In this document: one piece after another, positions 9,609-44,043 of the stretch
Numbering within the stretch: the first letter of the stretch is position 1
Layout of the letters: every line of letters starts with the position of its first letter
Assembly (NCBI GenBank): GCA_965230895.1
Contig: OZ246394.1
Location: 1,185,887-1,249,886, forward strand
From: an uncultured Gammaproteobacteria bacterium
Lineage (GTDB): Bacteria; Patescibacteriota; Microgenomatia; Levybacterales; UBA12049
Length of the DNA stretch: 64,000 nt
Direction: 5' to 3'
Position numbers and translations under genes: made by a program
Notes under the pieces: generated by a model
Database searches by the model: none
Told to the model about the DNA's origin: nothing
The model's input: the letters and a program-made list of their open reading frames with translations, nothing else

Positions 9609-11993
9609 CTATAGTCTCGCTCTGGTAGCAATTTCGGTTTCGATAACGTCGACTGATCTTCCATACTTCAATCGTGATAGTTCTCGCACCAACTCTGCTA
9701 CTCGAGGATTTTCCATAGCCTTCTCTTTCTCAACATCCTTGGTCGTATCAAGTGAGAATGGACGAACAGGCTCACCATTTACGATCGTTCGCATATAACA
9801 ATTATATTTATCTACATTAATTAAATCCTGTTCACTGAAGATCGGTTGGAACTCATGCTGAAGATAATTTGCATCAGTTACACCAATACGGAAAGATGCG
9901 ATTGTACCAACGTTACCAAAGATAGCATTTTTAATTTCTTCTTCCATCTGTCCGATAAACTGATTTGCCACAATAAGATTCAAACGATACTTTCGAGCCT
10001 CGGAAAGAATTTGCGCAAAATCTGGCGTCGCAAAGTTTTGGAACTCGTCGACATAGAGGAAGAAGTCTTTACGATCTTCCTTATTTACAATATCTTGTCG
10101 AGACATCGCAGCAACGAGAATTTTAGGAACTAAAATTAACCCAAGAAAGCTCGCATTTTCTTCACCAATCTTACCTTTAGAAAGATTGATAAGAAGAATC
10201 TTTTGTTCATCCATAACCTTTCGGAAATTGAACGCACTATCAGACTGCCCAATGATATTACGAATCATTTTGTTGGTAACGAAACGTCCAAACTTTGATG
10301 TAATATAATCCAAGACTTCAGATTTGTGGAAGTCAGACGTCTGAGCAATCTGGTCTGTCCAATAGCGTCTAATAATCGGATCTTCAACCTTTGGCAATAA
10401 CTCTTGAACGAAGTTCTGATCTGTTAAGACACGCATAACCTCGATAAAGGTACTTCCCTTTTCATACATAACAGTAAGCATCGCGTTACGAACAGCATGC
10501 TCAAATCGTGGACCGATGATACCAGTTTTGTTAGGATCAAAAAGCTTATACATCAAACCAATGATTGAATTTACAACAAAATGTTTTTGTTGTTCAGTTT
10601 CTGCTTCAAGCATGTTAAAGCCCATCGGACGATCGGTGTCTGAAGGATCAAAAAGAATAACATCTTCTGCACGCTTTGGCGGCATCATTTTCATGATATC
10701 TTCAACTAAATCTCCGTGCGGATCAATAACAGCACAACCTTCACCATTCATAATGTCCTGCATAATCATGCTTTTAAGAAATTCTGTTTTACCTGTACCT
10801 GTTTTTCCAATAATATATGTGTGTCTGCGCCTATCATCCCGTTCAACAAAAACATTTCGGGATATTCCCCGGAACGTACTGCGTCCCAGAAACAGACCCG
10901 TTGTTGGGAGATTTGATGGTGCAGCAGAACGTTTTGCATTAAGCCAATGAATACCTGGAGTTGAGATAGATTTGTTTGGGAAATGATAAATACTTGCAAG
11001 CTCTTCTGTCGTCAGAACAGAAGTCTGCCGAAACATTGGGAAATATCGATAGATGAAATCATTCATAAATAACCCTTTGTGGAATAATTCGCGCTTCTTG
11101 AACGCATTGCTTCCATTAAATTGGCCAAATGCCCCAAAGATATTTGAAAGATGAGCTTTTGCTGCAGCTTCTGTCTTTGCACACACAACAATACGAATGG
11201 TTGTATGAAAGCCTGCCTTACTTAATTTATTTTCGACAGCTTCCATTTCTTTCGCGTCTGTCTTATAACTAGCTTTTTCTGGATTAGATTCATTCTTTTT
11301 AAGACCTGCTAGATATGTTCTGCCTGCTTTCACCCATTTTGCATCTGCAGGTTTAATTAAAATTTGTATTGCTGCACCTTCGCCTTCTTGCATCTTGGCA
11401 AGAACTGATGTGATCGAAGACATAGGATCAACTGCAAGATCTTTGTATACCTTTATTGGCATGTAATCACTTGATTTTAAGTCTGTGTAAAGGAAAGCAA
11501 CTTTACCATCATCAGAAAAGATATTATATTCGGTACCAATTACGCCACCATCACGTTGTTTTGCAGCAGGATCATTAACAGGGACGATATCGGCTTCAGG
11601 ATATGCACCATTTATCTGTTTCTCGACGAAGTCACGATACTTTTGAGGAACATGGACGTAATATCGGATATCTCCGGGAAGACCAACAATCTCAAATGAA
11701 AGATGAGGTTGTGGTTTGAAGTTTTCAAATTTCCCACTTCCACGAATCGACGTAAGACTTGCAAACATTTGCTGAGCTGCATCAATCTTTGTATCATTAT
11801 CGCGTGGAACTGTCACTTGTAACAAGACTGAATTGAGAGAATCTGCTTCCCGAGTATGATGTCTTAAGTATAAAACGACTGCCCAATACAAAGCCCAAAA
11901 GAATCCAGCAAGAAACCCAAGCAATAAGACAATTCCGACAAGGGATGCCATAGCAACAAAGATATTATCGACTGTTAATACTGGTAATTCCAT
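9609..11993 (-). CDS. type IV secretion coupling-protein-like ATPase (VirD4/TraG/TraD family, membrane anchored)
   Basis: N-terminal TM helices; Walker A IIGKTGTGKT; Walker B-like FLYVDEFQNF; 794 aa. Fits the TraG/TraD-type P-loop NTPase architecture. Confidence 0.55.
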   Translation of the reverse strand: MELPVLTVDNIFVAMASLVGIVLLLGFLAGFFWALYWAVVLYLRHHTREADSLNSVLLQVTVPRDNDTKIDAAQQMFASLTSIRGSGKFENFKPQPHLSFEIVGLPGDIRYYVHVPQKYRDFVEKQINGAYPEADIVPVNDPAAKQRDGGVIGTEYNIFSDDGKVAFLYTDLKSSDYMPIKVYKDLAVDPMSSITSVLAKMQEGEGAAIQILIKPADAKWVKAGRTYLAGLKKNESNPEKASYKTDAKEMEAVENKLSKAGFHTTIRIVVCAKTEAAAKAHLSNIFGAFGQFNGSNAFKKRELFHKGLFMNDFIYRYFPMFRQTSVLTTEELASIYHFPNKSISTPGIHWLNAKRSAAPSNLPTTGLFLGRSTFRGISRNVFVERDDRRRHTYIIGKTGTGKTEFLKSMIMQDIMNGEGCAVIDPHGDLVEDIMKMMPPKRAEDVILFDPSDTDRPMGFNMLEAETEQQKHFVVNSIIGLMYKLFDPNKTGIIGPRFEHAVRNAMLTVMYEKGSTFIEVMRVLTDQNFVQELLPKVEDPIIRRYWTDQIAQTSDFHKSEVLDYITSKFGRFVTNKMIRNIIGQSDSAFNFRKVMDEQKILLINLSKGKIGEENASFLGLILVPKILVAAMSRQDIVNKEDRKDFFLYVDEFQNFATPDFAQILSEARKYRLNLIVANQFIGQMEEEIKNAIFGNVGTIASFRIGVTDANYLQHEFQPIFSEQDLINVDKYNCYMRTIVNGEPVRPFSLDTTKDVEKEKAMENPRVAELVRELSRLKYGRSVDVIETEIATRARL

Positions 11994-11997
11994 ATAT

Positions 11998-12618
11998 TTA
12001 ATTCCAAAATTTTATCAATTTATTTTCTTGTTTCTCTTCTTTTGTTTTCCCATGGGTTGGGTCTAGCTTTCTCCACACGTACATAACAAGCTCTGCTAAC
12101 CAATGTTTTGAATCGTTAAGTTTTGGATGTTGCTTCTCTTCAGCAACAGCCTGCTCAAAAGTCATTGGTAGTGATTTTACATTAAACACATTTTCATCAA
12201 TCGGTATACCTGGGCCGGAATGAGTCACTCCAGCCGCTTTTACTGCTTCGGACAGTTTCGGTTTATCAAGATCAGGTGTCTTTTCAATAATATTTTCGAC
12301 ACTTGATTCAACCTTCAGCTCCGGAGTTGTAGGTTGAACTTCAACTCGCTTGATTTCGGCAGTATTTTGAACAGGCTTAGTTGAAACTTCCTGTCTTGCT
12401 GGTTGGACATCTGCCTGATCTTCTGAAGATGCCACCGATACTGGACCTTGCTCCGGATGAACAGAAATTGCCTGTGGCGGAGTAGGAATTGATTGTATCA
12501 CAGGTTCAGATGGGGACATAGTTCCTGCCGAAATTGTTGGTGCAGGAGGTTGACCCCGGCCAGATATCATTGCCTGAGCACTTGGAGTACTCTGGACAGG
12601 AGATGTACTTGGATCCAT
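11998..12618 (-). CDS. Pro/Ser/Thr-rich low-complexity protein (hypothetical)
   Basis: 206 aa, immediately downstream of the coupling ATPase (4 nt gap); N-terminal PSTSPVQSTPSAQ low complexity. Confidence 0.35.
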   Translation of the reverse strand: MDPSTSPVQSTPSAQAMISGRGQPPAPTISAGTMSPSEPVIQSIPTPPQAISVHPEQGPVSVASSEDQADVQPARQEVSTKPVQNTAEIKRVEVQPTTPELKVESSVENIIEKTPDLDKPKLSEAVKAAGVTHSGPGIPIDENVFNVKSLPMTFEQAVAEEKQHPKLNDSKHWLAELVMYVWRKLDPTHGKTKEEKQENKLIKFWN

Positions 12619-12820: not shown

Positions 12821-14206
12821 TTAATCACAACTTATCCCAGATTCCTCAGCATATGCTTCTTTTGTCAAACCACACCCTGGGCAACTATTCCCGACTGGCC
12901 CATCAGCTTTAAATGAACATTTAGGGCAGGAGAACCACTCTTGTCCTTCAGGTGCTTTCTTTCCAAATTGGGAAACGCTATTCAACATTGCATTCACATT
13001 GTTTCCACCAATCTTTACACCTGCAGATTTACCACAACCAACTTCTCTCTCTTCAGCTTGCTCATGCCCATGACGTTGGGCAAGTGTAGCCATATATCTG
13101 TAAGCATCTTCATGCAGTTTTTTATTTTTTGATTCAAAGATAACATGCTCTTCTCCATCTATATGCATAGTAGCTCGTTCTGAGCTTAATAGCATGATAT
13201 TGTAAGCACGAGCTATTGCTTCAGGATCAAAAGCATCCTTCGTAATTTGATCAAGGAGATAGAGTTTGTATGGTAAATATAATTTGTCTAATTTTTGCCA
13301 TTCTTCTTCTTCCATTGCACCAACATCTTCGGCAAAATATTTCTGAAAAACAGTATCTATAGTTTGGCCTTCTTGCTCCGGAATTATCAACGGATTCTCC
13401 AGATACCATGCATCTAATGGTATTTGCTTTCCAGTCGTTTGTTCACGTTCAGCTTTCCGCTCAAAGAAATGAGGATCCAGTCGTTGTGCAATTGAGACAT
13501 AATCAGTTGTATCAACAGAAGATGCATATCGAACATAATTAATAATTCGATCTCCAGTTTCAGGATCTATTGCAGATTGATACCCGTCAATAAAATTATG
13601 CATATAAGGGCTATCAGCTACTTCGCTTGGTGCAGAAATAACCATAAGTGTAGTACCAACAGGTGTTTGAGGATCAGTTAAAGTATCTTGAATTCTTAAA
13701 AACCCGTCTATCTCAGCTTTTTCACGAACGAGATCATTTGAGCCATTTCGTTCACGGTAAACTCTTCCTCTTTCTAAAACATTTTCATATGGTTCAGGAA
13801 ATGCTTCATATCTGACTTTCTTTTCTGAGTCTATTGTAAGTGTTAATCGGCTTTCTTTGGTATTGTGCCGTTCACGAAGTGCAGTCGTAATATTGTTAAA
13901 TTCTTCATTGCGGAAGCTTTCTTTCTCCTCTTCAGAACGTGCTCTTTCAAATCCCCATCGCGCAAGTACAGGATTATAGTTGTCCAATGTTCCAGAACGG
14001 TCTTCAGGAAGATTTAATGCTTTATTCCATCTTTTCTGGAGGCTTTTAACTCCTTCCAATTCACTTTCAGCGTTTTGAGCAAGGACTGCATCTATTCTGG
14101 AAATCGTAGCATCAGCTTTTGCAGTGACCAAACGTGATGTATAAGCTTTCCGTTGAGGGAATCTAAATTCCTCGGCATATGAACGTCTCGACATTCTTTC
14201 TTGCAT
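12821..14206 (-). CDS. uncharacterised 461-aa protein with C-terminal double zinc-ribbon (CPKC...CPGC)
   Basis: Long ORF with no recognisable catalytic motif; C-terminal Cys pairs. Preceded by a cobalamin-riboswitch-like element and a terminator hairpin. Confidence 0.6.
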   Translation of the reverse strand: MQERMSRRSYAEEFRFPQRKAYTSRLVTAKADATISRIDAVLAQNAESELEGVKSLQKRWNKALNLPEDRSGTLDNYNPVLARWGFERARSEEEKESFRNEEFNNITTALRERHNTKESRLTLTIDSEKKVRYEAFPEPYENVLERGRVYRERNGSNDLVREKAEIDGFLRIQDTLTDPQTPVGTTLMVISAPSEVADSPYMHNFIDGYQSAIDPETGDRIINYVRYASSVDTTDYVSIAQRLDPHFFERKAEREQTTGKQIPLDAWYLENPLIIPEQEGQTIDTVFQKYFAEDVGAMEEEEWQKLDKLYLPYKLYLLDQITKDAFDPEAIARAYNIMLLSSERATMHIDGEEHVIFESKNKKLHEDAYRYMATLAQRHGHEQAEEREVGCGKSAGVKIGGNNVNAMLNSVSQFGKKAPEGQEWFSCPKCSFKADGPVGNSCPGCGLTKEAYAEESGISCD

Positions 14207-14236
14207 AAAAAAACTCCTCGCTTCGGAGGAGTTGCA
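14207..14236 (-). terminator. rho-independent terminator / riboswitch expression platform abutting ATG of orf461
   Basis: Minus strand reads CTCCTCCGAAGCGAGGAG followed by UUUUUUU, then the ATG directly. Confidence 0.6.
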
Positions 14237-14344
14237 TGAAAAACTGCTTCTGCTCCGGAAGACTTAAAGGGGCTCTGGCTCGATTTGAAAACAAACCTTA
14301 CAGTTGCGGCACAGCTTAGGATTTTCACCTAATTCACCCACCAA
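14237..14344 (-). promoter_or_regulatory. cobalamin-riboswitch-like element B (compact variant)
   Basis: Minus strand AGGUGAAAAUCCUAAGCUGUGCCGCAACUGUAA (core at 14298-14329) matches the GGUGnnAAnUCC...GCUG...CGCAnCnGUnA core of cobalamin riboswitches. It is followed by AGCCAGAGCCCC (B12-box-like) and then a terminator. Confidence 0.5.
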
Positions 14345-14886
14345 TTATTTCTTAATCCATTTAATCTCTTTTTGTTTTTCCTGATGATTAATATATCGCG
14401 CGAGTGTAAATAACAAGTCAGAAAGACGGTTGAGGTAAATAAGAATTGCCTGATCAACTTCTTCCTTTTCAGCCAAAGTAACGACTCTTCTCTCTGCACG
14501 TCGTGCAAATGTCCTTGCAACATGAATGAGTGAGCCTGATTTACTACCTCCAGGCAGAATAAAATTCTTTAGCTCAGGAAGTTTCTTTGTTAATGAATCA
14601 ATCAAAATTTCAAACTCCTGTGGACGCTTTTCCAAACCAATCACAGGAATCGGATATGGAGTTGCAAGTGTAGATCCGATTGCAAAAAGATCATGCTGAA
14701 TTGATTCAAGCTCTTTTGCAACCATTCTATACCTGCTCTTTGGAAGGAACGCCAATGTTTGCCCTAAAACACTATTTAATTCATCGACTGCGGCATAAGT
14801 CTCAACCCGTTCATGGGATTTCGCTACACGAGTTCCATCAAAAAGTGATGTTGTCCCTTTATCTCCTGTTCTTGTATAAATTGGCA
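14345..14886 (-). CDS. pduO: ATP:cob(I)alamin adenosyltransferase, PduO-type
   Basis: MPIYTRTGDKGTTSL N-terminal signature of PduO/MMAB family. The track ORF (to 14920) is over-extended through the upstream terminator; real ATG at 14886-14884. Confidence 0.85.
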
Positions 14887-14913
14887 TAAAAAAATCCTTC
14901 CGTGCAGAAGGAT
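14887..14913 (-). terminator. rho-independent terminator / expression platform abutting pduO ATG
   Basis: Minus strand AUCCUUCUGCACGGAAGGAU followed by UUUUUUU, then ATG. Confidence 0.6.
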
Positions 14914-15009
14914 TTCTCAAAAGCTCCTGCGCGGGATAAAATGTTTTCTGACTATCACAGTTGCGGCACAGCCATGGAATTTCACCATGATTTCCTCTTT
15001 AATTGTCTC
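14914..15009 (-). promoter_or_regulatory. cobalamin-riboswitch-like element A (compact variant)
   Basis: Minus strand AAAGAGGAAAUCAUGGUGAAAUUCCAUGGCUGUGCCGCAACUGUGA (core at 14955-14986) followed by CCCGCGCAGGAGC (B12-box-like). About 30 nt are near-identical to element B. Confidence 0.5.
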
Positions 15010-17466
15010 TTAGCATTCAGAATAACCACATGCGTAGCATTTCTTGCAACCTTCTTCGTAAGCGAAACTTCCTGATCCACATTCTGGGCAAATATCAAAG
15101 AGCGATGTTGAAGAACTTGATGCTTCCATTCCTGTTTGTGGAAGTGCAAGTTGGTTTACAACAACTTCTTCTTCGCCCGTTACAACTGCATCTGCTTTGA
15201 TAGGTGTTGTGACACCGTTAGCATGGCCGTTTCCATTCCCGTTTGCAAGAACTGCTTGTGCAGGTGTGTACGAAGCTTTATCTTCAACCTTGCCATTAAC
15301 TCTAAATTCACAATGTCGTGCAAGAACTTTAGAAATAGCATCAGGCAATGAACGAACTCTGTTCTCACCAAATCCACTCGATCGTGAACCTCCGATGCCA
15401 GCCAATTCTGACACAATCTCGCGGACCCGCTCCCGGGCAGGAACCGGACTGTGGATACGTAACACAAAGGATACCATCCGGCCGAGCGCGTCCGCGAGGG
15501 CCATTAAATCAGAACCGCTTTTCCCGTGATTGATGAAGACTTCAAAGAGGTCGCCCTTTTCGTCCTGATTGATGGTGACATATAATTTACCAGTTGGACT
15601 ATCAGCTTTGTATGTAACTCCAGTCAACATCATTGGTCTTGGGACACGTGGAGTTACTGGAACAACTGGTTCTTGTACTACTGGAACTTCGACTTTCGCT
15701 TCTTTCTTTTCTTCTCGCTGCAGAACTCCGGTTCGTGATCCATCTCGGAAATAGGTAACCCCTTTAAGACCATTATCATATGCTGACATATAGAGATTTT
15801 TAACATCTTCGACAGTATGATGACTTGGTGCATTTACAGTCTTTGATATTGATGAATCAATATATTCTTGCGCAACTGTTTGGATCTTTACATGATCTTC
15901 AGGTGATAAATCATTTGCTCCTACAAAATAATCTGGTCTTTCAGCATCAGGATGCGATTCCTTCCATTCGCCATACAATCCGTGATAAACCATTTGCTTA
16001 CCCAAGCGACCGTTATGTGAGTATTCAAATTCATAGACTGGTTCTACGCCACTTGAAACTGCTGCGATAAGACTTGTTGTGCCTGTTGGAGCAATTGTCA
16101 AAAGTACAGCATTTCGGATTCCCTGCTTGTAGATCTTCTCGCGAATTTCTTCTGGTAATGCTTGAATATGATATCCCTGGAGATATTTATCTCGATCATA
16201 CTTCAAGAATGAACCTTTTTCTTTTGCTATATCCGCTGACGCAATATATGCATTGTCTCGAAGTGCTGCAAAGATCTTCTTTGACACTTCTTCTGACTCT
16301 TTTGATCCGTAGCGGATCTTCATCTTGATGAAGGTATCTGCAATTCCCATGATTCCCAATCCAGTTCGGCGAATATCTTTTGCAACTTTTTCGTTTTCTT
16401 TAAAGAAGTAATAGGTATCGTCGATAACATTGTCGAGGAAACGCATCGCAACTTGGACGTCTTTACCAAACGCTTCATAATCAAACCAACCTGCTTGATC
16501 ATTCTTAAGATCAGCATCTTTTACATACGCGGCCAAATTCATCGCACCTAAGTTACAAACTGCCCAACCTCCAAGTGGTTGTTCTCCGCAAGGGTTTGTT
16601 GCGAGTAATTTTTCGAAATACCAAGTGTTTGATCTTTTGTTAGAACGATCTAAGAAGTGAAGACCTGGCTCAGCAGATTTCCATGCAGCTGTACAAATAA
16701 GATCCCAAAGTTCTTTTGCTTGTACTGTCTTGTAAACTTTAACTTTACCGCCATTTGCTTTCCAACTTCGGAGGTCCCCGTCCCAATCTTTATCATAATT
16801 TGGATCACTCAAATCTGGGTAAACAAGATCCCATGGCTTATCAGCTTTGACTGCCTCCATAAATTCATCTGAAACACAGACGGAAAGGTTTGCTCCATTG
16901 ATCTTTGTTAAATCTTCTTTAACAGTGATGAATTCTTCAATATCTGGATGCCAGTCCCAAAGCATAAGCATTGTAGCTCCACGTCGTGATCCGCCTTGTT
17001 GCACAATATCATGTGTTGCTACAGAGAAAAGGGTCGCCCAGTTGATAGGTCCTGATGAAGTTCCATTTACTTTCTTAACGCGTGATCCTCGTGGTCGAAG
17101 TGATGAAAGATTAAGGCCAACTCCGCCTGCTCGTGATTGAATTTCGATGAGTTGCCCGAGTGATTCGAGGATTCCATGTCGTGAATCTTTTGGACTTGGG
17201 ATAACGAAACAATTGAAGTAAGTAACTTGGTATCCAGTACCAGCTCCTGAAAGGATACGTCCACCTGGAACAAATTTGAAATCCTCAAGGACTCGATAGA
17301 ATTCACCTTCCCATTTTGCTTGCTTAGATTTTTTCTCTTGTGCAGCGATACCTTTTGCAACTCTTCTCCACATTTCTTCAGGTGTGTTTTCAAGAAGTTC
17401 TCCTTCTACACCTTTAAGAGCATATCTATCTAAAAATACTTTTTGTCTTACGCCTTCAAATTTCAT
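15010..17466 (-). CDS. nrdJ: adenosylcobalamin-dependent ribonucleotide reductase, class II
   Basis: 818 aa with RNR catalytic-core motifs (CGEQPLGGWAVCNLGAMNL) and a C-terminal Cys-rich zinc-ribbon tail; ATGA overlap with nrdR. Confidence 0.9.
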   Translation of the reverse strand: MKFEGVRQKVFLDRYALKGVEGELLENTPEEMWRRVAKGIAAQEKKSKQAKWEGEFYRVLEDFKFVPGGRILSGAGTGYQVTYFNCFVIPSPKDSRHGILESLGQLIEIQSRAGGVGLNLSSLRPRGSRVKKVNGTSSGPINWATLFSVATHDIVQQGGSRRGATMLMLWDWHPDIEEFITVKEDLTKINGANLSVCVSDEFMEAVKADKPWDLVYPDLSDPNYDKDWDGDLRSWKANGGKVKVYKTVQAKELWDLICTAAWKSAEPGLHFLDRSNKRSNTWYFEKLLATNPCGEQPLGGWAVCNLGAMNLAAYVKDADLKNDQAGWFDYEAFGKDVQVAMRFLDNVIDDTYYFFKENEKVAKDIRRTGLGIMGIADTFIKMKIRYGSKESEEVSKKIFAALRDNAYIASADIAKEKGSFLKYDRDKYLQGYHIQALPEEIREKIYKQGIRNAVLLTIAPTGTTSLIAAVSSGVEPVYEFEYSHNGRLGKQMVYHGLYGEWKESHPDAERPDYFVGANDLSPEDHVKIQTVAQEYIDSSISKTVNAPSHHTVEDVKNLYMSAYDNGLKGVTYFRDGSRTGVLQREEKKEAKVEVPVVQEPVVPVTPRVPRPMMLTGVTYKADSPTGKLYVTINQDEKGDLFEVFINHGKSGSDLMALADALGRMVSFVLRIHSPVPARERVREIVSELAGIGGSRSSGFGENRVRSLPDAISKVLARHCEFRVNGKVEDKASYTPAQAVLANGNGNGHANGVTTPIKADAVVTGEEEVVVNQLALPQTGMEASSSSTSLFDICPECGSGSFAYEEGCKKCYACGYSEC

Positions 17467-17942
17467 AATGTTGGTTTAGTTATTTTTCTTTTTGCCACAG
17501 ATAATTCTTTAACTTCTTTTTCAAAGTCTCCGGCTTCAACAAAGCGCTTAAATACACTCGCAAAACGAATATACGCAACTTTGTCTAACTGCTTTAATCG
17601 GGAGGCAACTATTTCGCCGATTAGTTCACTCTTAACCTCAAGTGAGCCCATTGTTCGTAGCTCACGGCTTACTTCATTGATGATTTTTTCAATCACACTC
17701 GCCGGAACTACGGTTTTCTCACATGATTTTAAAAGTCCAGTTTTTAATTTTTCCCGGTTAAATTGCTCTCTGCGTCCGTCCCGTTTGATTACAATTAGTT
17801 GTACATGCTCGACTCGTTCATAAGTCGTAAATCGCTTGCAACATGCCAGGCAAGCTCTTCTCCTTCGAATCGTGTCCATGTCCGAGCTATCACGTGTCTC
17901 TACAACCTCTGAATCCTTGCTTCCACAGTACGGGCAGTGCAT
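17463..17942 (-). CDS. nrdR: transcriptional repressor NrdR
   Basis: MHCPYCGSKDSEVVETRDS zinc-ribbon N-terminus plus ATP-cone; 159 aa. Confidence 0.9.
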   Translation of the reverse strand: MHCPYCGSKDSEVVETRDSSDMDTIRRRRACLACCKRFTTYERVEHVQLIVIKRDGRREQFNREKLKTGLLKSCEKTVVPASVIEKIINEVSRELRTMGSLEVKSELIGEIVASRLKQLDKVAYIRFASVFKRFVEAGDFEKEVKELSVAKRKITKPTL

Positions 17943-18155
17943 ATAACCTTTCTATTGAAGTGAATCTTATATGCCTCTAAGATCGGCTCTTCAATAACAT
18001 ATCTAGTGCTATAAAAACGATACACCACTACATCTATAGCGTCAACTATAAAGAACTGTATCAAAATAATCACTAGCTTCAACTGTATACATTTATATCA
18101 TCGTTTTCTTACACTGAATTTAAGGGAAAATAAAGAATGTTGATTTTGCTTATTT

Positions 18156-39013: not shown

Positions 39014-39427
39014 GGGGATGAATCGATTCGACGGAAAAAGTTCTTTTAAAACTGCAAGCCGACTTTGATTACTAGTCGTAAAACAGAGTCAAAAAATAAA
39101 TGCTAAATCTAGCATTGAAGCCCTAAGAGCTGAAAGGGATGCAATTCTTGCTGAACTTAACAACTCTTTTGGTGGCCAAAAGGCTTACGCTCTCGCAGCT
39201 TAAGCTTTAAAGCCTGTTCGCATATGTCTTCCCTTTCCGGGACAGTGCGGGCATAAAAACAGGAGAGGAAAACCTTAAGGAGTTGACGCGCCCTTATTGT
39301 ATACCGTCTATACTTTGTTATTCCGGCCAACAGGACACGGCAAAGTGAATTTTAAGAGTTGGCTACGCTTGTAGAGGTTTTACTAAATTTTTTTCACACT
39401 CCGGTTCACTGCCGGACATCTCCACAT
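39014..39427 (+). ncRNA. ssrA: tmRNA (ssrA)
   Basis: 5' GGGGAUGAAUCGAUUCGACGG. Acceptor stem pairs with 3' CAUCUCC, giving a G3:U70 Ala identity pair; T-arm CCGGUUCACUGCCGG. Internal tag ORF ends ...GGQKAYALAA then TAA. Located immediately downstream of smpB. Confidence 0.8.
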
Positions 39428-41673: not shown

Positions 41674-41760
41674 CGGAGGGAACAGGATTCGAACCTGCGG
41701 TAGGTGTAACCCCACGACTCCTTAGCAAGGAGTTACCATAAACCACTCGGACATCCCTCC
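41674..41760 (-). tRNA. tRNA-Ser (anticodon GCU), type II
   Basis: Manual fold: acceptor GGAGGGA/TCCCTCC, anticodon arm ACTCC-TTGCTAA-GGAGT, long variable arm, T-loop TTCGAAT; no encoded CCA. Confidence 0.8.
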
Positions 41761-41781
41761 TCGTAAGAATGAACTCTTTTG

Positions 41782-41868
41782 CGGAGGAGATGAGATTCGA
41801 ACTCATGGACCCTTTGACAGGTCGGAGGTTTAGTAAACCTCTGCACTCGGCCACTATGCGACTCCTCC
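41782..41868 (-). tRNA. type II Ser-like tRNA with anomalous anticodon loop UUACUAA (apparent anticodon ACU)
   Basis: Manual fold: acceptor GGAGGAG/CTCCTCC, discriminator G, D-arm almost identical to the Ser(UGA) gene, anticodon arm GAGGT-TTACTAA-ACCTC. Confidence 0.55.
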
Positions 41869-41887
41869 TCGTGCATTTACGATAATG

Positions 41888-41974
41888 CGGAGAGAGTGGG
41901 ATTCGAACCCACGGAAGGCTTGCACCCTCAGATGTTTTCAAGACATCCGCACTCGACCACTATGCGATCTCTCC
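41888..41974 (-). tRNA. tRNA-Ser (anticodon UGA), type II
   Basis: Acceptor GGAGAGA/TCTCTCC, anticodon arm GATGT-CTTGAAA-ACATC, long variable arm, T-loop TTCGAAT. Confidence 0.8.
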
Positions 41975-42056
41975 GTAAATTAACGCTTTATATAAACGTC
42001 GTCTGCCTATTATAGCATTTCTTGACTTCCTTTTTCTAATCAGTTAGAGTGAAAAT

Positions 42057-42617
42057 ATGCCTACTGCCCAAGAAAAAACCAAAGATCCTCAAAAAAATGA
42101 CGAGGAATTTTATGAGGAACATAATGTAAAAACGTTTATGTCCTGGCATGCTCCGGGAAGACCGTACAGAAAACGGTCCAGAGAATATTACATTAATAGT
42201 TTTCTCATAACTATGGCTCTGGAAATAATCCTTTTTCTCTTCTCACAATATCTTCTTATGCTCGTCGTTTTCTCTCTTGCGTTCCTCGCTTTTGCTTTGG
42301 CAATTGTTCCACCGCATAAATTTTATTACAGCATCAGCTCCGAAGGCATTCGAGTTGAAGATAATTATTTTATTTGGGAAGAACTTTACGACTTCTATTT
42401 TATGGAACGACAAGGCGTAGATGTACTCCACGTTCGAACAAAAGCATATTTCCCAGGAGAACTCACCATAGTTTTAGGTGATCTTCCTGTAGAACAGGTA
42501 CGAAAAGTCCTTCTTATGTTTCTTCCTTTCCGGGAATATGTCGAGCCGACATTTATGGAAAAAGCTGGCGATTGGTTAGAAAGAAATTTTCCACTGGAAC
42601 GATCTCCACAGCAATAA
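42057..42617 (+). CDS. membrane protein with two TM + bPH_2-like domain, paralog 3 (hypothetical)
   Basis: 186 aa; same architecture as 7936 and 35502 proteins; sits between two tRNA clusters. Confidence 0.4.
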   Translation: MPTAQEKTKDPQKNDEEFYEEHNVKTFMSWHAPGRPYRKRSREYYINSFLITMALEIILFLFSQYLLMLVVFSLAFLAFALAIVPPHKFYYSISSEGIRVEDNYFIWEELYDFYFMERQGVDVLHVRTKAYFPGELTIVLGDLPVEQVRKVLLMFLPFREYVEPTFMEKAGDWLERNFPLERSPQQ

Positions 42618-42670
42618 ATTCCATATCAGTTGCCTCGAAAACCTGTTTAAGGTAAAATACACTTTATTAT

Positions 42671-42744
42671 GCACCCGTAGCTCAGCTGGATAGAGCGCAA
42701 CATTGCGGATGTTGAGGTCGGAAGTTCGAATCTTCTCGGGTGTA
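42671..42744 (+). tRNA. tRNA-Arg-like (anticodon GCG)
   Basis: Sequence closely resembles bacterial tRNA-Arg (GCACCCGTAGCTCAGCTGGATAGAGC...); anticodon arm CAACA-TTGCGGA-TGTTG; G1:U72; discriminator A. Confidence 0.65.
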
Positions 42745-42755
42745 CTCAAATGGTT

Positions 42756-42845
42756 GGAGGGATCGCATAGTGGTCGAGTGCGGCGGTTTCGAAAACCGCT
42801 GTTCCGATTTTTTCGGAACCGAGGGTTCGAATCCCTCTCCCTCCG
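42756..42845 (+). tRNA. tRNA-Ser (anticodon CGA), type II
   Basis: Acceptor GGAGGGA/TCCCTCC, anticodon arm GCGGT-TTCGAAA-ACCGC, long variable arm. Confidence 0.8.
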
Positions 42846-42853
42846 CAACACGC

Positions 42854-43801
42854 TTATTTCTTCTTACTCGCTTTTCCAAATAACTGCAGTTCGAAGATAA
42901 AAGCGATCATAAGCGCAATTGCGGCAAGGACTATAACTTTAAAAAGACCTCTCGCAATTTTGTTCACATTCTTCTCTTCAAGCCGATGCATCAACGTACG
43001 AAGTCTTGCTCTCCACTCTTTCTTGTCGGTTTCACTCATATCTGATGTCTCGATATCCACTCGAGCCTTTTTTGCACGTTCTAGTGCGTCTTTTTGTGCA
43101 GGATCTTCTTCTTCATCTTCAGGAGCAACAGGAGTTTCAGGATCCTCTTCTTCAATAGATGGGACACCGTCTAAAAGCTCTGCTTTTTGTTCATCATTTA
43201 GTTTTGAATCCTGCAATAGTGACTCTCTATGCTCTTTTTTCAGTCCAGTCATTGCAGCTTTAACAGCTTGCATCTCTTCAGGAGTCAGCTGTTCTTTCCC
43301 TTTAATAAGCTTGTCGACAGCCAATCGTTGTTTTACAACTTCCTTATCTTCTTCGCTCAGATCAAGTTTATCGACGAGATCCTCAGGCTTAGAGGTAGGT
43401 TCTCCTTCTTCAGCTTCATCTGCAGAGAAATCGTCCTCAGGAGCAAGCACTTCACGAATCTTACCATCAGTCAGAGAGAGATCTTTCAATGATTGAGAAA
43501 AAGCCTCCCTGGCTTTTGCACTAACCGCTACATCTTGTTCATCTACCTCATCATTTTCATTCGAATCTGTAGCTTTAATAATTTCGTACACTTCGAGTTT
43601 TAATTCAGACTTATGCTCTTCCGAGATGTTTCCTTCTGCATCAATTGGAGTTTGTTTTACTTTCCACAAAAGCTCTTTTACATTTTCAGCAATATTTGCT
43701 GTAGCAAATGCATCTCGTCTTTCATGATCCGGGATCATGGCTTCATAGTGAGCTTGTTTTTCATGCTCGAGTTCTTGTTCGTGATTATCTCCTAATTCCA
43801 T
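42854..43801 (-). CDS. highly acidic coiled-coil protein with C-terminal TM anchor (hypothetical)
   Basis: 315 aa, E/D/K-rich; C-terminal LFKVIVLAAIALMIAFIF TM; SD-like AGGAAA upstream of the ATG. Confidence 0.5.
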   Translation of the reverse strand: MELGDNHEQELEHEKQAHYEAMIPDHERRDAFATANIAENVKELLWKVKQTPIDAEGNISEEHKSELKLEVYEIIKATDSNENDEVDEQDVAVSAKAREAFSQSLKDLSLTDGKIREVLAPEDDFSADEAEEGEPTSKPEDLVDKLDLSEEDKEVVKQRLAVDKLIKGKEQLTPEEMQAVKAAMTGLKKEHRESLLQDSKLNDEQKAELLDGVPSIEEEDPETPVAPEDEEEDPAQKDALERAKKARVDIETSDMSETDKKEWRARLRTLMHRLEEKNVNKIARGLFKVIVLAAIALMIAFIFELQLFGKASKKK

Positions 43802-43956
43802 ACATTTCCTTTCTTTATCCTCTATTATTTAGCCTGAATTGTCAAGTAGAACCTGACCTTGGCTTCATACGAAAGAATACGTTATAATTACAAAACGATT
43901 ATAGGAAAACTCTTCATTTTATACTTGATATTTTCCTTATAAAAAAATTACGATTT

Positions 43957-44043
43957 GGAGGAGTCGGATAGCGGTCTATTCCACACGCTTGGAAAGCGTG
44001 CGAGCGCAAGCTCACGCGGGTTCGAATCCCGCCTCCTCCGCCA
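43957..44043 (+). tRNA. tRNA-Ser (anticodon GGA), type II, CCA encoded
   Basis: Acceptor GGAGGAG/CTCCTCC, anticodon arm CACGC-TTGGAAA-GCGTG, long variable arm, 3' GCCA. Confidence 0.85.

What the first reader, a model, noticed from the sequence alone, without database searches (positions are those of the whole stretch)
14207..15009. Two near-identical compact cobalamin-riboswitch-like elements flanking pduO in the nrdR-nrdJ-pduO operon
Seen in sequence: two intergenic regions on the minus strand each carry a 30-nt motif GGUGAAAWUCCNNRGCUGUGCCGCAACUGURA. One lies between the nrdJ stop and the pduO start, the other between the pduO stop and the 461-aa gene. Each is followed by a B12-box-like AGCCAG/GCGCAGGAGC segment and a strong hairpin plus U7.

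Established knowledge: the motif fits the cobalamin-riboswitch core (GGUGnnAAnUCC...GCUG...CGCAnCnGUnA, cf. the E. coli btuB leader). The elements are only about 95-110 nt long, closer to the compact Cbl-II/AdoCbl-variant classes than to the classical roughly 200-nt form.

Inference: AdoCbl feedback control of the adenosyltransferase and of the downstream unknown gene. An AdoCbl-dependent RNR gene directly upstream fits this.
Basis: partly seen in the sequence, partly recalled or inferred. Interest (0 to 1): 0.7.

Follow-up and report, generated by a model that had tools for sequence, protein, structure and literature searches.

The report
Two cobalamin riboswitches gating B12-salvage genes
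Two vitamin-B12-sensing RNA switches sit inside an operon of a tiny uncultured bacterium, switching off a B12-activating enzyme and an uncharacterised 461-aa protein when B12 is plentiful; the switches are an ordinary known kind, and the unknown protein is the interesting leftover.

Summary
The shared 32-nt motif occurs exactly twice in 64 kb, with 0 expected by chance. Rfam calls both sites cobalamin riboswitches: site A scores 46.9 bits on RF01689 (threshold 36.5), and site B scores 31.9 bits on RF00174 (threshold 31.5).

The flanking genes are confirmed as nrdR, nrdJ, a PduO-type adenosyltransferase, and a 461-aa ORF with no known domain. A covariance model built here finds 32 further sites in related Microgenomates/Levybacteria-like loci. 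All lie upstream of pduO or of homologues of the 461-aa gene, and the helices covary strongly.

It is the P13/L13 hairpin, the likely kissing-loop partner of L5. Its 3' half can instead pair with the 5' arm of the terminator. The terminator's 3' arm holds the Shine-Dalgarno sequence, and the U7 run is the spacer before AUG. The inferred logic is an OFF switch acting on both termination and translation.

The two elements are not near-identical. They are distinct subtypes, about 58% identical overall. Whether they prefer AdoCbl over other cobalamins cannot be read from sequence.

As riboswitches they are new members of a known kind. The unexplained part is the 461-aa family: 672 clusters, no Pfam match, no similar solved fold, and always under a cobalamin riboswitch.

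The parts
17463..17942 (-). nrdR, the first gene of the operon
   Evidence: Pfam Zn_ribbon_NrdR 6.6e-18 and ATP-cone 2.3e-19. Its end overlaps the nrdJ start by 4 nt.
15010..17466 (-). nrdJ, the adenosylcobalamin-dependent (class II) ribonucleotide reductase
   Evidence: Pfam RNR barrel 1.2e-120 plus TSCPD. NCBIfam NrdJ_Z scores 576 bits against a cutoff of 400.
14937..15001 (-). Riboswitch A aptamer, P1 to P1. Sub-elements: P1 15001-14995 / 14943-14937; J3/4 14994-14990; P4+L4 14989-14973; P5/L5 14970-14962 (L5 = GCC); P6 14960-14948; J6/3 AAAA 14947-14944.
   Evidence: RF01689 scores 46.9 bits against a threshold of 36.5, at 14933-15009. Model R1 scores 83.4 bits. Coordinates come and helix covariation.
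14925..14936 (-). Riboswitch A P13 hairpin (UCC CGCGCA GGA). L13 is the putative kissing-loop partner of L5.
   Evidence: The hairpin is conserved in 24+ related sites with L13 = CGAGCA. Its stem covaries: UCC/GGA, CUUC/GAAG, GCU/AGC, CCU/AGG, GUUCCU/AGGAAC. The role is assigned by analogy to PMC10327014.
14900..14934 (-). Riboswitch A antiterminator. CCG.GCAGGAG (14934-14924) pairs with CUUCUGC.CGG (14910-14900). This pairing excludes both P13 and the terminator.
   Evidence: It is the minimum-free-energy fold of the full element. It reaches -14.0 kcal/mol once transcribed up to the terminator loop. In the full platform it is -15.2 kcal/mol, against -15.6 for P13 plus terminator.
14888..14915 (-). 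Riboswitch A terminator-like hairpin plus U7. The 3' arm holds the Shine-Dalgarno sequence GGAAGGA (14901-14895), and the pduO ATG (14887) follows U7 directly.
   Evidence: Sequence, hairpin energy -10.3 kcal/mol, coordinates. The same design recurs in related loci.
14345..14887 (-). pduO-type ATP:cob(I)alamin adenosyltransferase
   Evidence: Pfam Cob_adeno_trans 2.2e-58. TIGR00636 PduO_Nterm scores 188 bits against a cutoff of 108.
14263..14356 (-). Riboswitch B aptamer. Sub-elements: P1 14356-14351 / 14268-14263; 8-nt J1/3 bulge 14350-14343; P3 GGUGG 14342-14338 / CCCC 14272-14269; P4+L4 14332-14316; P5/L5 14313-14305; P6 with a short hairpin extension 14303-14275. The 5' strand of P1 lies inside the last codons of pduO.
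   Evidence: RF00174 scores 31.9 bits against a threshold of 31.5, at 14252-14376. RF01689 scores 34.6 bits, below its 36.5 threshold. Model R1 scores 45.0 bits, E 8e-10. Coordinates.
14247..14261 (-). Riboswitch B P13 hairpin (CUUC CGGAGCA GAAG)
   Evidence: The orthologous hairpin in L001, L009, L012 and L016 is CUUC CG(G)AGCA GAAG.
14207..14233 (-). Riboswitch B terminator hairpin plus U7. The 3' arm holds the Shine-Dalgarno sequence GAGGAG (14219-14214), and the ATG of the 461-aa gene is at 14206. The alternative antiterminator pairs CUUC.GGAG of P13/L13 with CUCC-GAAG of the terminator's 5' arm and loop.
   Evidence: Terminator scan hit. Hairpin energy -10.6 kcal/mol. The antiterminator state is -15.2 kcal/mol, against -12.9 for P13 plus terminator.
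12821..14206 (-). 461-aa protein 'X' of unknown function, controlled by riboswitch B. It has a flexible GCG motif (C391) and a C-terminal CPxC...CPGCG four-cysteine ribbon.

Best explanation
Two cobalamin-sensing OFF riboswitches lie inside one minus-strand operon: nrdR-nrdJ-[RS-A]-pduO-[RS-B]-X. The source genome is Levybacteria/Microgenomates-like (CPR).

**Anatomy (shown).** Each switch has a compact class-II-type aptamer with P1/P3, P4 carrying a T-loop L4, P5 with L5 = GCC, P6, and J6/3. A P13 hairpin follows, then a hairpin plus U7. The 3' arm of that last hairpin is the Shine-Dalgarno sequence. The U-run is the spacer to the AUG.

**Mechanism with cobalamin bound (inferred).**
- L5 (GCC) kisses L13 (G[A/C]GC) and locks P13.
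- This leaves the downstream hairpin free to form.
- The hairpin terminates transcription and, on any read-through RNA, buries the ribosome-binding site.

**Mechanism without ligand (inferred).** The 3' half of P13/L13 pairs with the 5' arm of the terminator. This antiterminator lets pduO, and then X, be transcribed and translated.

**Operon logic (inferred).**
- RS-A starts 11 nt after the nrdJ stop codon, so it probably acts on transcripts coming from nrdJ.
- nrdJ would then be made regardless of B12.
- The B12-activating enzyme and X would be added only when cobalamin is scarce.
- X needs two successive read-throughs.

The helices, their covariation, the alternative pairings and the gene context are shown. 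Ligand binding, the kissing loop, the regulatory sign and termination are inferred from conservation and from experimentally dissected relatives.
For: **Aptamer identity and structure.**
- Rfam hits sit at or above gathering scores.
- The motif occurs twice, against 0 expected.
- Model R1, built here, finds only these two sites in the window. It finds 32 more in related loci, all on the coding strand upstream of pduO, X or the uptake genes.
- 94.5% of cells are paired, against 66.9% in shuffles. 18 of 21 pairs change on both sides. Slid controls give 31-46%. On the independent MAFFT alignment the figure is 93.8% against 71.8%.
- The P13 stem covaries while L13 stays CGAGCA.

**Switching.**
- The terminator and antiterminator states are nearly equal in energy and mutually exclusive. 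For A they are -15.6 and -15.2 kcal/mol. For B they are -12.9 and -15.2 kcal/mol.
- P13 does not overlap the terminator. That is the repressing layout shown by mutagenesis for the P. megaterium metE riboswitch. The activating cobT riboswitch has a different layout (PMC10327014).

**Context.**
- The Shine-Dalgarno-in-3'-arm / U7 / AUG design recurs in most related sites.
- The synteny nrdR-nrdJ-RS-(DUF4430-DUF6580)-pduO-(RS)-X is conserved.
- RS-A begins 6-35 nt after nrdJ in most loci.
Against: - No experiment is available for this lineage.
- Riboswitch B only just reaches the RF00174 threshold (31.9 against 31.5) and is below the RF01689 threshold.
- P1 of riboswitch A is weak: 6 of 7 pairs with an A-A mismatch.
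- L5 and L13 are almost invariant, so the kissing loop has no real covariation support. There is one suggestive case (L021: L5 GUC with L13 CGAAUCA). The class-I-like relatives (L005, L014, L015) have L13 CGAUUCA/CGAUACA, which fits L5 poorly.
- The alignment used was fitted to the model.
- Whole-element folding energies are no better than shuffles (z = -1.1 and +0.2), as is common for riboswitches.
- A promoter inside the 3' end of nrdJ cannot be excluded. Promoter-like matches are at chance level, and CPR promoters are not well defined.
Confidence: 0.85

Rival explanations
1. The switches sense cobalamin but not specifically AdoCbl. One or both may prefer hydroxo-/methylcobalamin (class IIa behaviour) or be promiscuous. 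The two subtypes might then report different cobalamin pools, one for pduO and one for X.
For: - Site A scores best on RF01689. That is the env8-type family. Class IIa members bind HyCbl/MeCbl according to PMC7367189.
- Site A has a plain 7-nt L6 (IIa-like) but no J1/3 bulge (IIb-like).
- Site B has an 8-nt J1/3 bulge (IIa-like) but a short P6 hairpin extension (IIb-like).
- Subtypes A and B are each conserved at their own position across genomes. Their junctions differ: J6/3 is AAAA in A and AGCC/AUCC in B.
Against: - The biological logic favours AdoCbl for pduO, as product feedback on the adenosyltransferase.
- Polaski 2018 (PMC6158498) notes that class-II members lacking J1/3, like site A, include the E. 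faecalis riboswitch. PMC7367189 gives class IIb as AdoCbl-binding.
- No sequence rule available here predicts selectivity.
Confidence: 0.4
2. Control is translational only. The hairpin plus U7 merely sequesters the Shine-Dalgarno sequence, and the U-run is just the SD-AUG spacer, so there is no transcription termination.
For: - The Shine-Dalgarno sequence sits in the 3' arm and AUG follows U7 directly.
- Some orthologues have no terminator. In L017_B, L005 and L015 the GGAG of P13 is itself the Shine-Dalgarno sequence, 7 nt from AUG.
Against: - A GC-containing 8-10-bp stem followed by 7 U is the canonical intrinsic-terminator form.
- The antiterminator forms first during transcription, which is the layout of transcriptional switches (PMC10327014).
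- The two modes do not exclude each other.
Confidence: 0.25
3. Riboswitch A is mainly a 3'-UTR element of nrdJ, for example setting nrdJ mRNA 3'-end stability, rather than a leader for pduO.
For: It begins 11 nt after the nrdJ stop. It lies 6-35 nt after nrdJ in most related loci.
Against: - The expression platform is wired to the pduO Shine-Dalgarno sequence and AUG.
- In L002, L007 and L010 the same subtype sits 130-1200 nt from nrdJ but still directly before the downstream gene.
Confidence: 0.1
4. The switches are ON switches, or non-functional relics.
For: One activating corrinoid riboswitch is known (PMC10327014). Riboswitch B has marginal Rfam scores.
Against: - In the activating type, P13 overlaps the terminator. 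Here P13 and the terminator are separate, and a third helix competes with both.
- Helices covary and are kept across lineages whose X orthologues have diverged to about 30% identity, which argues against relics.
Confidence: 0.04

Closest known systems
Rfam RF01689 (AdoCbl-II / 'AdoCbl-variant', env8-type class II cobalamin riboswitch), clan CL00101
   Same: - It has the same core: P1/P3, T-loop L4 GUGAAAUUC, P5 with a GCC loop, short P6, J6/3.
- Site A scores 46.9 bits over the full model.
- It has the L5-L13 kissing-loop architecture, and a bulged nucleotide in L13 is described for env8 (PMC10327014).
   Different: - Site A lacks the J1/3 bulge.
- Site B has a small P6 hairpin extension and scores slightly better as RF00174 at gathering level.
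- env8 is translational. Here P13 is followed by a separate terminator / Shine-Dalgarno hairpin.
Priestia megaterium metE corrinoid riboswitch (repressing, transcriptional; PMC10327014)
   Same: It uses the same three-helix logic. P13 is stabilised by the kissing loop and the terminator then forms. [quoted passage not shown]
   Different: - That aptamer is a larger class-I type with L5 UCCCG.
- Here the terminator's 3' arm is also the ribosome-binding site.
- Here the switch sits between genes of an operon rather than in a 5' leader.
B12 riboswitch control of ribonucleotide-reductase-related and B12-salvage genes (general B12 regulon; own knowledge, e.g. Streptomyces nrdABS repression by B12)
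   Same: Cobalamin availability is linked to the choice or servicing of the B12-dependent reductase NrdJ.
   Different: Here it is not an alternative reductase that is repressed. The repressed genes are the adenosyltransferase, an unknown protein and, in relatives, DUF4430/DUF6580 uptake candidates. All sit downstream of nrdJ in the same operon.
Tandem riboswitch arrangements (e.g. Bacillus clausii metE SAM + AdoCbl; own knowledge)
   Same: Two complete switches in series on one transcript, each with its own terminator.
   Different: Both sense the same ligand family, and a gene (pduO) lies between them. They therefore gate successive cistrons rather than one.

Membership tests
Cobalamin riboswitch clan (Rfam CL00101: RF00174 / RF01689 / RF01482) | Covariance-model score at or above the curated gathering score | tested here: met
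   Site A scores 46.9 on RF01689 against 36.5. Site B scores 31.9 on RF00174 against 31.5, which is marginal, and 34.6 on RF01689, below 36.5.
Cobalamin riboswitch clan | Conserved four-way-junction core (P3-P6, T-loop L4, B12-box strand) supported by compensatory changes | tested here: met
   93.8-94.5% of cells are paired, against 67-72% in shuffles. 16 of 24 and 18 of 21 pairs change on both sides.
Cobalamin riboswitch clan | L5-L13 kissing loop linking the aptamer to the expression platform | tested here: inconclusive
   L5 GCC and L13 G(A/C)GC are complementary, with one bulge. The P13 stem covaries. The loops themselves are nearly invariant, so there is no covariation test. The class-I-like relatives fit poorly.
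Cobalamin riboswitch clan | Direct, selective binding of a cobalamin | not testable with these tools
   This needs in-line probing or ITC with AdoCbl, MeCbl and HyCbl.
Cobalamin riboswitch clan | Location upstream of B12-related genes, conserved across genomes | tested here: met
   All 34 model hits lie upstream of pduO, X or DUF4430-DUF6580.
Class Cbl-IIa (HyCbl/MeCbl-selective; definition in PMC7367189) | Bulged J1/3 plus P6 capped by a simple loop | tested here: not met
   Site A has the simple L6 but no J1/3 bulge. Site B has the J1/3 bulge, but its P6 carries a hairpin extension.
Class Cbl-IIb (AdoCbl-selective; definition in PMC7367189) | Short paired or mismatched J1/3 plus a short hairpin extension of P6 | tested here: not met
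   Site A has the paired/mismatched J1/3 but no P6 extension. Site B has the P6 hairpin but an 8-nt bulge. Neither subclass fits cleanly.
Class Cbl-I | P2 module and large P6 extension (P7-P11) | tested here: not met
   Both features are absent from both window elements. Site B matches RF00174 only with large deletions (125 nt against a 189-position model).
Intrinsic (factor-independent) terminator | GC-containing stem-loop directly followed by a U-run | tested here: met
   Site A has a 10-bp stem (-10.3 kcal/mol) plus U7. Site B has an 8-bp stem (-10.6 kcal/mol) plus U7. Actual termination was not tested.
PduO-type ATP:cob(I)alamin adenosyltransferase (gene between the switches) | Match to PF01923 / TIGR00636 above cutoff | tested here: met
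   PF01923 gives 2.2e-58. TIGR00636 scores 188 bits against 108.
Rubredoxin-like domain (C-terminus of X) | Match to a rubredoxin-type model above threshold | tested here: not met
   PF21349 RUBY_RBDX scores 15.9 bits against a cutoff of 26.5. Rubrerythrin in PDB gives E 0.027-0.3. Only a generic four-cysteine ribbon can be claimed.

The most novel reading that the evidence does not exclude
The 461-aa protein X and its superfamily may be a missing cytoplasmic step of B12 salvage in CPR bacteria.

**Proposed role.** X could be a cobalamin-processing or electron-delivering partner of PduO, or of NrdJ. For example, it could remove the upper ligand or reduce cob(III/II)alamin. The invariant Cys391 in a flexible GCG loop and a rubredoxin-like four-cysteine C-terminal knuckle would carry out the chemistry.

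**Supporting observations.**
- The superfamily has 672 clusters at 50% identity, no Pfam domain and no similar solved fold.
- X sits after uptake candidates (DUF4430, DUF6580) and PduO in one riboswitch-gated operon.
- In different lineages it is guarded by four different cobalamin aptamer subtypes.

**A second, weaker novel reading.** Subtypes A and B may have different upper-ligand selectivity and so read two cobalamin pools.
Probability: 0.35. Interest if true: 0.7.

Novelty: new member of a known kind. Interest (0 to 1): 0.42.

Why it matters
As riboswitches these are routine. A standard Rfam scan finds them, and their switching logic matches a dissected model system.

Three things add modest value:
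- They extend cobalamin riboswitches to Microgenomates/CPR genomes. The literature searches here found no paper on this, although the library searched is limited.
- They show a tidy operon design. B12-sensing terminators placed after nrdJ append salvage genes only when B12 is short. This is probably combined with NrdR control at the operon promoter.
- They flag a large, wholly uncharacterised protein family as part of the B12 regulon.

Orphan genes behind B12 riboswitches have repeatedly led to new B12 transport and processing proteins. X is therefore a concrete, testable candidate in organisms that depend entirely on scavenged cofactor.

Tried and rejected
**Function of X.**
- Pfam and NCBIfam gave nothing, even for the longest relatives.
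- PDB sequence profiles returned only weak zinc-ribbon/rubrerythrin hits.
- Foldseek against PDB gave E of at least 0.07.
- The AFDB libraries were unavailable.

**X as a B12-independent reductase.** I rejected this as unlikely. There is no barrel fold, and only one invariant cysteine lies outside the ribbon.

**The X' proteins of L006/L007/L010.** A first single-sequence hhalign suggested they share only the C-terminal 80 aa with X. A profile-profile comparison then showed homology from X residue 158 to the end. They are therefore one superfamily, not a shared tail on unrelated domains.

**Other dead ends.**
- The alignment of 28 homologues was too diverse for the locus search. I repeated it with 13.
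- Whole-element MFE z-scores are uninformative.
- The promoter scan is at chance level, so it cannot settle whether RS-A has its own promoter.
- Literature searches for cobalamin riboswitches in CPR/Microgenomates, and for DUF6580, found nothing.
- The ON-switch and relic readings were rejected on the helix layout and on covariation.
Full report
**1. Observation**

The degenerate motif is 32 nt long. It matches exactly at 14298-14329 and 14955-14986 and nowhere else in 64 kb, even with three mismatches allowed. None of 100 shuffles produced a match.

The flanking ORFs are confirmed:

| Coordinates (minus strand) | Gene | Evidence |
|---|---|---|
| 17463-17942 | nrdR | Zn ribbon + ATP-cone |
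| 15010-17466 | nrdJ | RNR barrel 1e-120; NrdJ_Z 576 bits against cutoff 400 |
| 14345-14887 | PduO-type adenosyltransferase | PF01923 2e-58; TIGR00636 188 bits against cutoff 108 |
| 12821-14206 | 461-aa ORF 'X' | no Pfam or NCBIfam match |

The 90%-identity cluster of this NrdJ includes a protein annotated as Candidatus Levybacteria. The nearest related loci come from Roizmanbacteria and Microgenomates MAGs. The window therefore most likely comes from a CPR/Microgenomates genome.

**2. Are they cobalamin riboswitches?**

Rfam at gathering thresholds reports two hits:
- RF01689 (AdoCbl-II) at 14933-15009(-), 46.9 bits against a threshold of 36.5.
- RF00174 (Cobalamin) at 14252-14376(-), 31.9 bits against a threshold of 31.5.

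In a local scan the second site also scores 34.6 bits on RF01689, just below threshold.

I then collected loci that encode homologues of X. From 11 sites lying between nrdJ and pduO I made an alignment (A3) and a covariance model, R1, covering P1, P4, P5, P6 and the downstream P13 hairpin.
- R1 finds only the two known sites in the window, at 83.4 and 45.0 bits.
- It finds 26 further matches in 22 related loci (25 on the coding strand; one weak minus-strand match at E 0.15) and 6 in four more, all of those six on the coding strand.

Helix support:
- On the MAFFT alignment A3, 93.8% of cells are paired, against 71.8% in shuffles. 16 of 24 pairs change on both sides.
- On the model-fitted 28-sequence alignment, 94.5% are paired against 66.9%. 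18 of 21 pairs change on both sides. Slid controls give 31-46%.
- The second alignment leans towards the model by construction. The first does not.

The aptamer assignment is therefore solid.

**3.

AGUCAG (A) and AGCCAG (B) are the start of the true B12-box strand, that is, the P6 3' side plus J6/3.

GCGCAGGAGC is something else. It is the P13 hairpin of the expression platform (A: UCC-CGCGCA-GGA, 14936-14925; B: CUUC-CGGAGCA-GAAG, 14261-14247).
- Across related sites the loop is almost always CGAGCA.
- The stem changes by compensatory substitutions: UCC/GGA, UUCC/GGAA, CUUC/GAAG, CUUU/AGAG, GCU/AGC, CCU/AGG, GUUCCU/AGGAAC.
- L5 (GCC) can pair with L13 G(A)GC, leaving one bulged base. In site A the bulged A is a C.

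The L5-L13 kissing loop is common to all cobalamin riboswitch classes (PMC7367189). A bulged kissing loop is described for env8 (PMC10327014). Both loops are nearly invariant here, so the kissing loop is inferred rather than shown. The single variant, L021 (L5 GUC with L13 CGAAUCA), is only suggestive.

**4. Switching mechanism**

Downstream of P13, each element has a hairpin followed by U7 and then immediately AUG.
- The 3' arm of the hairpin contains the Shine-Dalgarno sequence: GGAAGGA at 14901-14895 (A) and GAGGAG at 14219-14214 (B).
- The 3' half of P13/L13 can instead pair with the 5' arm and loop of that hairpin.
  - In A, CCG.GCAGGAG pairs with CUUCUGC.CGG.
  - In B, CUUC.GGAG pairs with CUCC-GAAG.
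- This alternative is the minimum-free-energy fold of the full elements.

| Site | P13 + terminator (kcal/mol) | Antiterminator (kcal/mol) |
|---|---|---|
| A | -15.6 | -15.2 |
| B | -12.9 | -15.2 |

The antiterminator is complete before the terminator's 3' arm is transcribed, reaching -14.0 (A) and -13.1 (B) kcal/mol at that point.

[quoted passage not shown] There, the kissing loop stabilises P13 and the terminator forms. [quoted passage not shown] In the activating cobT riboswitch, by contrast, P13 itself overlaps the terminator (PMC10327014).

I therefore infer OFF switches. The terminator doubles as a Shine-Dalgarno sequestering helix, so control is probably both transcriptional and translational. 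Some orthologues (L017_B, L005, L015) lack the terminator and use the GGAG of P13 as the Shine-Dalgarno sequence, which is purely translational control.

**5. Operon logic**

Riboswitch A starts 11 nt after the nrdJ stop codon. In most related loci the gap is 6-35 nt, which leaves no room for a promoter. The simplest reading has four parts:
- nrdR-nrdJ transcripts run into RS-A.
- With cobalamin, they end there.
- Without it, pduO is added.
- A second decision at RS-B then governs X.

P1 of RS-B overlaps the last codons of pduO.

Upstream of nrdR there is a promoter-like site (18045-18017) overlapped by two sequences that resemble NrdR boxes. That resemblance rests on my memory of the consensus and was not tested. 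If real, the salvage genes would need both derepression by NrdR and low B12.

In several relatives, RS-A is followed by two extra genes before pduO and X:
- A DUF4430 gene. This is the transcobalamin C-terminal-type domain (PMC4350170), here with an N-terminal hydrophobic anchor.
- A multi-pass membrane DUF6580 gene.

These are plausibly uptake genes. They are not present in this 64-kb window.

**6. Two subtypes, not near-identical copies**

A and B share 27 of 32 core positions but only about 58% of aligned columns overall.

| Feature | Subtype A | Subtype B |
|---|---|---|
| Junctions | AGGNAAxC ... CAGAAAAC | GGGUGAA ... CAGA(G/U)CCCC |
| P1-P3 | continuous | 5' bulge |
| P6 | simple L6 loop | often a short hairpin extension |
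| Position | after nrdJ | before X |

Each subtype keeps its position across genomes.

Two further subtypes occur upstream of X elsewhere: a CUCCGAAGUC type in L003, L004 and L019, and a class-I type in L005, L014 and L015.

By the architectural definitions in PMC7367189, neither window element fits class IIa or class IIb cleanly. AdoCbl selectivity is therefore plausible, especially for pduO feedback, but not established.

**7. The 461-aa protein X**

*Family size and fold.*
- A first search found about 50 homologues, all hypothetical.
- A full profile search found 672 clusters at 50% identity, 394 of them at E below 1e-30.
- The AF2 model is fairly confident, with pLDDT 78.7 and a core above 90.

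*Conserved residues.*
- Across 52 diverse members the invariant residues are E112, R161, G168, C391 (in a GCG motif within a low-confidence loop), C427 and C445.
- Nearly invariant residues include R113, R146, E162, E165, S191, F205, D207 and R226.

*C-terminus.*
- It is a CPxC...CPGCG ribbon ending in Cys-Asp.
- Its best matches, all below threshold, are to the rubredoxin-like domain of rubrerythrin.

*Relatives and context.*
- A second group, X' (L006, L007, L010, P0035/36/42/45), is homologous from X residue 158 to the end (hhalign probability 99.7).
- All 26 loci that include upstream sequence have a cobalamin riboswitch upstream of X or of the operon containing it. X is nearly always the gene after pduO.
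- X is 64% identical between the window and its closest relative, L001. The neighbouring genes are far more conserved: nrdJ 95%, pduO 92%, and the VirD4-like gene 97%.

My best guess is a cobalamin-processing or reducing partner for PduO. I put that at roughly 35-45%. It is inference from context only.

**8. Verdict**

The finding is correct and well supported. As riboswitches the elements are new members of a known kind and are detectable by routine annotation. The added value is the intra-operon, two-stage design and the uncharacterised X family, which is now firmly tied to the B12 regulon.

Noticed in passing
window 12821-14206 (-) compared with L001 5992-7380: X is only 64% identical to its closest orthologue. 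The flanking genes are far more conserved: nrdJ 95%, pduO 92%, the VirD4-like gene 97% and nrdR 99%. X is evolving much faster than its neighbours.
   Followed up: partly
L002 4397-5369; L009 3039-3990; L019 2536-3469; L028 3374-4457; L031 3366-4323: In several relatives riboswitch A is followed by two extra genes before pduO-X. One is a DUF4430 (transcobalamin-like, signal-anchored) gene and the other a DUF6580 multi-pass membrane gene. They are probably a B12 uptake pair. No homologue is present in the 64-kb window.
   Followed up: partly
window 14971-14972 with 14951-14952 (site A); alignment A3 columns 36-37 with 87-88: Two base pairs between J4/5 and the 3' end of L6 covary: GC/GU, GG/CC, UC/GA, GA/UC, AC/GU. 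95.5% of cells are paired (helix 3). This pseudoknot-like contact is not in the Rfam structure line shown. I did not check whether it is described in the crystal-structure papers.
   Followed up: no
window 14351-14356 (-): The 5' strand of P1 of riboswitch B lies inside the last codons of pduO (...W-I-K-K-stop). This is also true in L001, L009, L017 and L021. A ribosome terminating on pduO would therefore cover part of the aptamer.
   Followed up: no
window 9609-11993 (-) and 11998-12618 (-): A 794-aa VirD4/TraG-like coupling ATPase (TrwB_AAD_bind, DUF87; DUF8128 in relatives) and a small Pro-rich protein always follow X in the same orientation across Microgenomates loci. No link to B12 is evident.
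   Followed up: no
window 39014-39427 (+): The tmRNA (92 bits) has an insertion of about 66 nt relative to the Rfam model, just after the tag-coding region.
   Followed up: no
window 41674-44040: A cluster of six tRNA genes on both strands, five of them long-variable-arm types of 84-90 nt.
   Followed up: no
window 17995-18045 (-): Upstream of nrdR there is a promoter-like TTGACG-17-TATCGT. It is overlapped by two imperfect palindromes, CTATAGATGTAGTG and CACTAGATATGTTA, about 31 bp apart. These resemble tandem NrdR boxes. The consensus is recalled from memory and was not tested.
   Followed up: no
L007 4250-4480; L010 3880-3930; L010 183-3809: In some relatives the nrdJ-riboswitch spacer holds tandem GGAATTA heptamer repeats, with a run of N in L007. 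The L010 nrdJ ORF is 1208 aa with an insertion of about 930 nt, possibly an intein.
   Followed up: no
L001, L002, L006-L010 record titles: Several MAG records carrying this clearly Microgenomates-type locus are labelled 'uncultured Gammaproteobacteria', 'Lysobacterales' or 'Actinomycetota'. These are probably wrong taxonomic labels in the source records.
   Followed up: no
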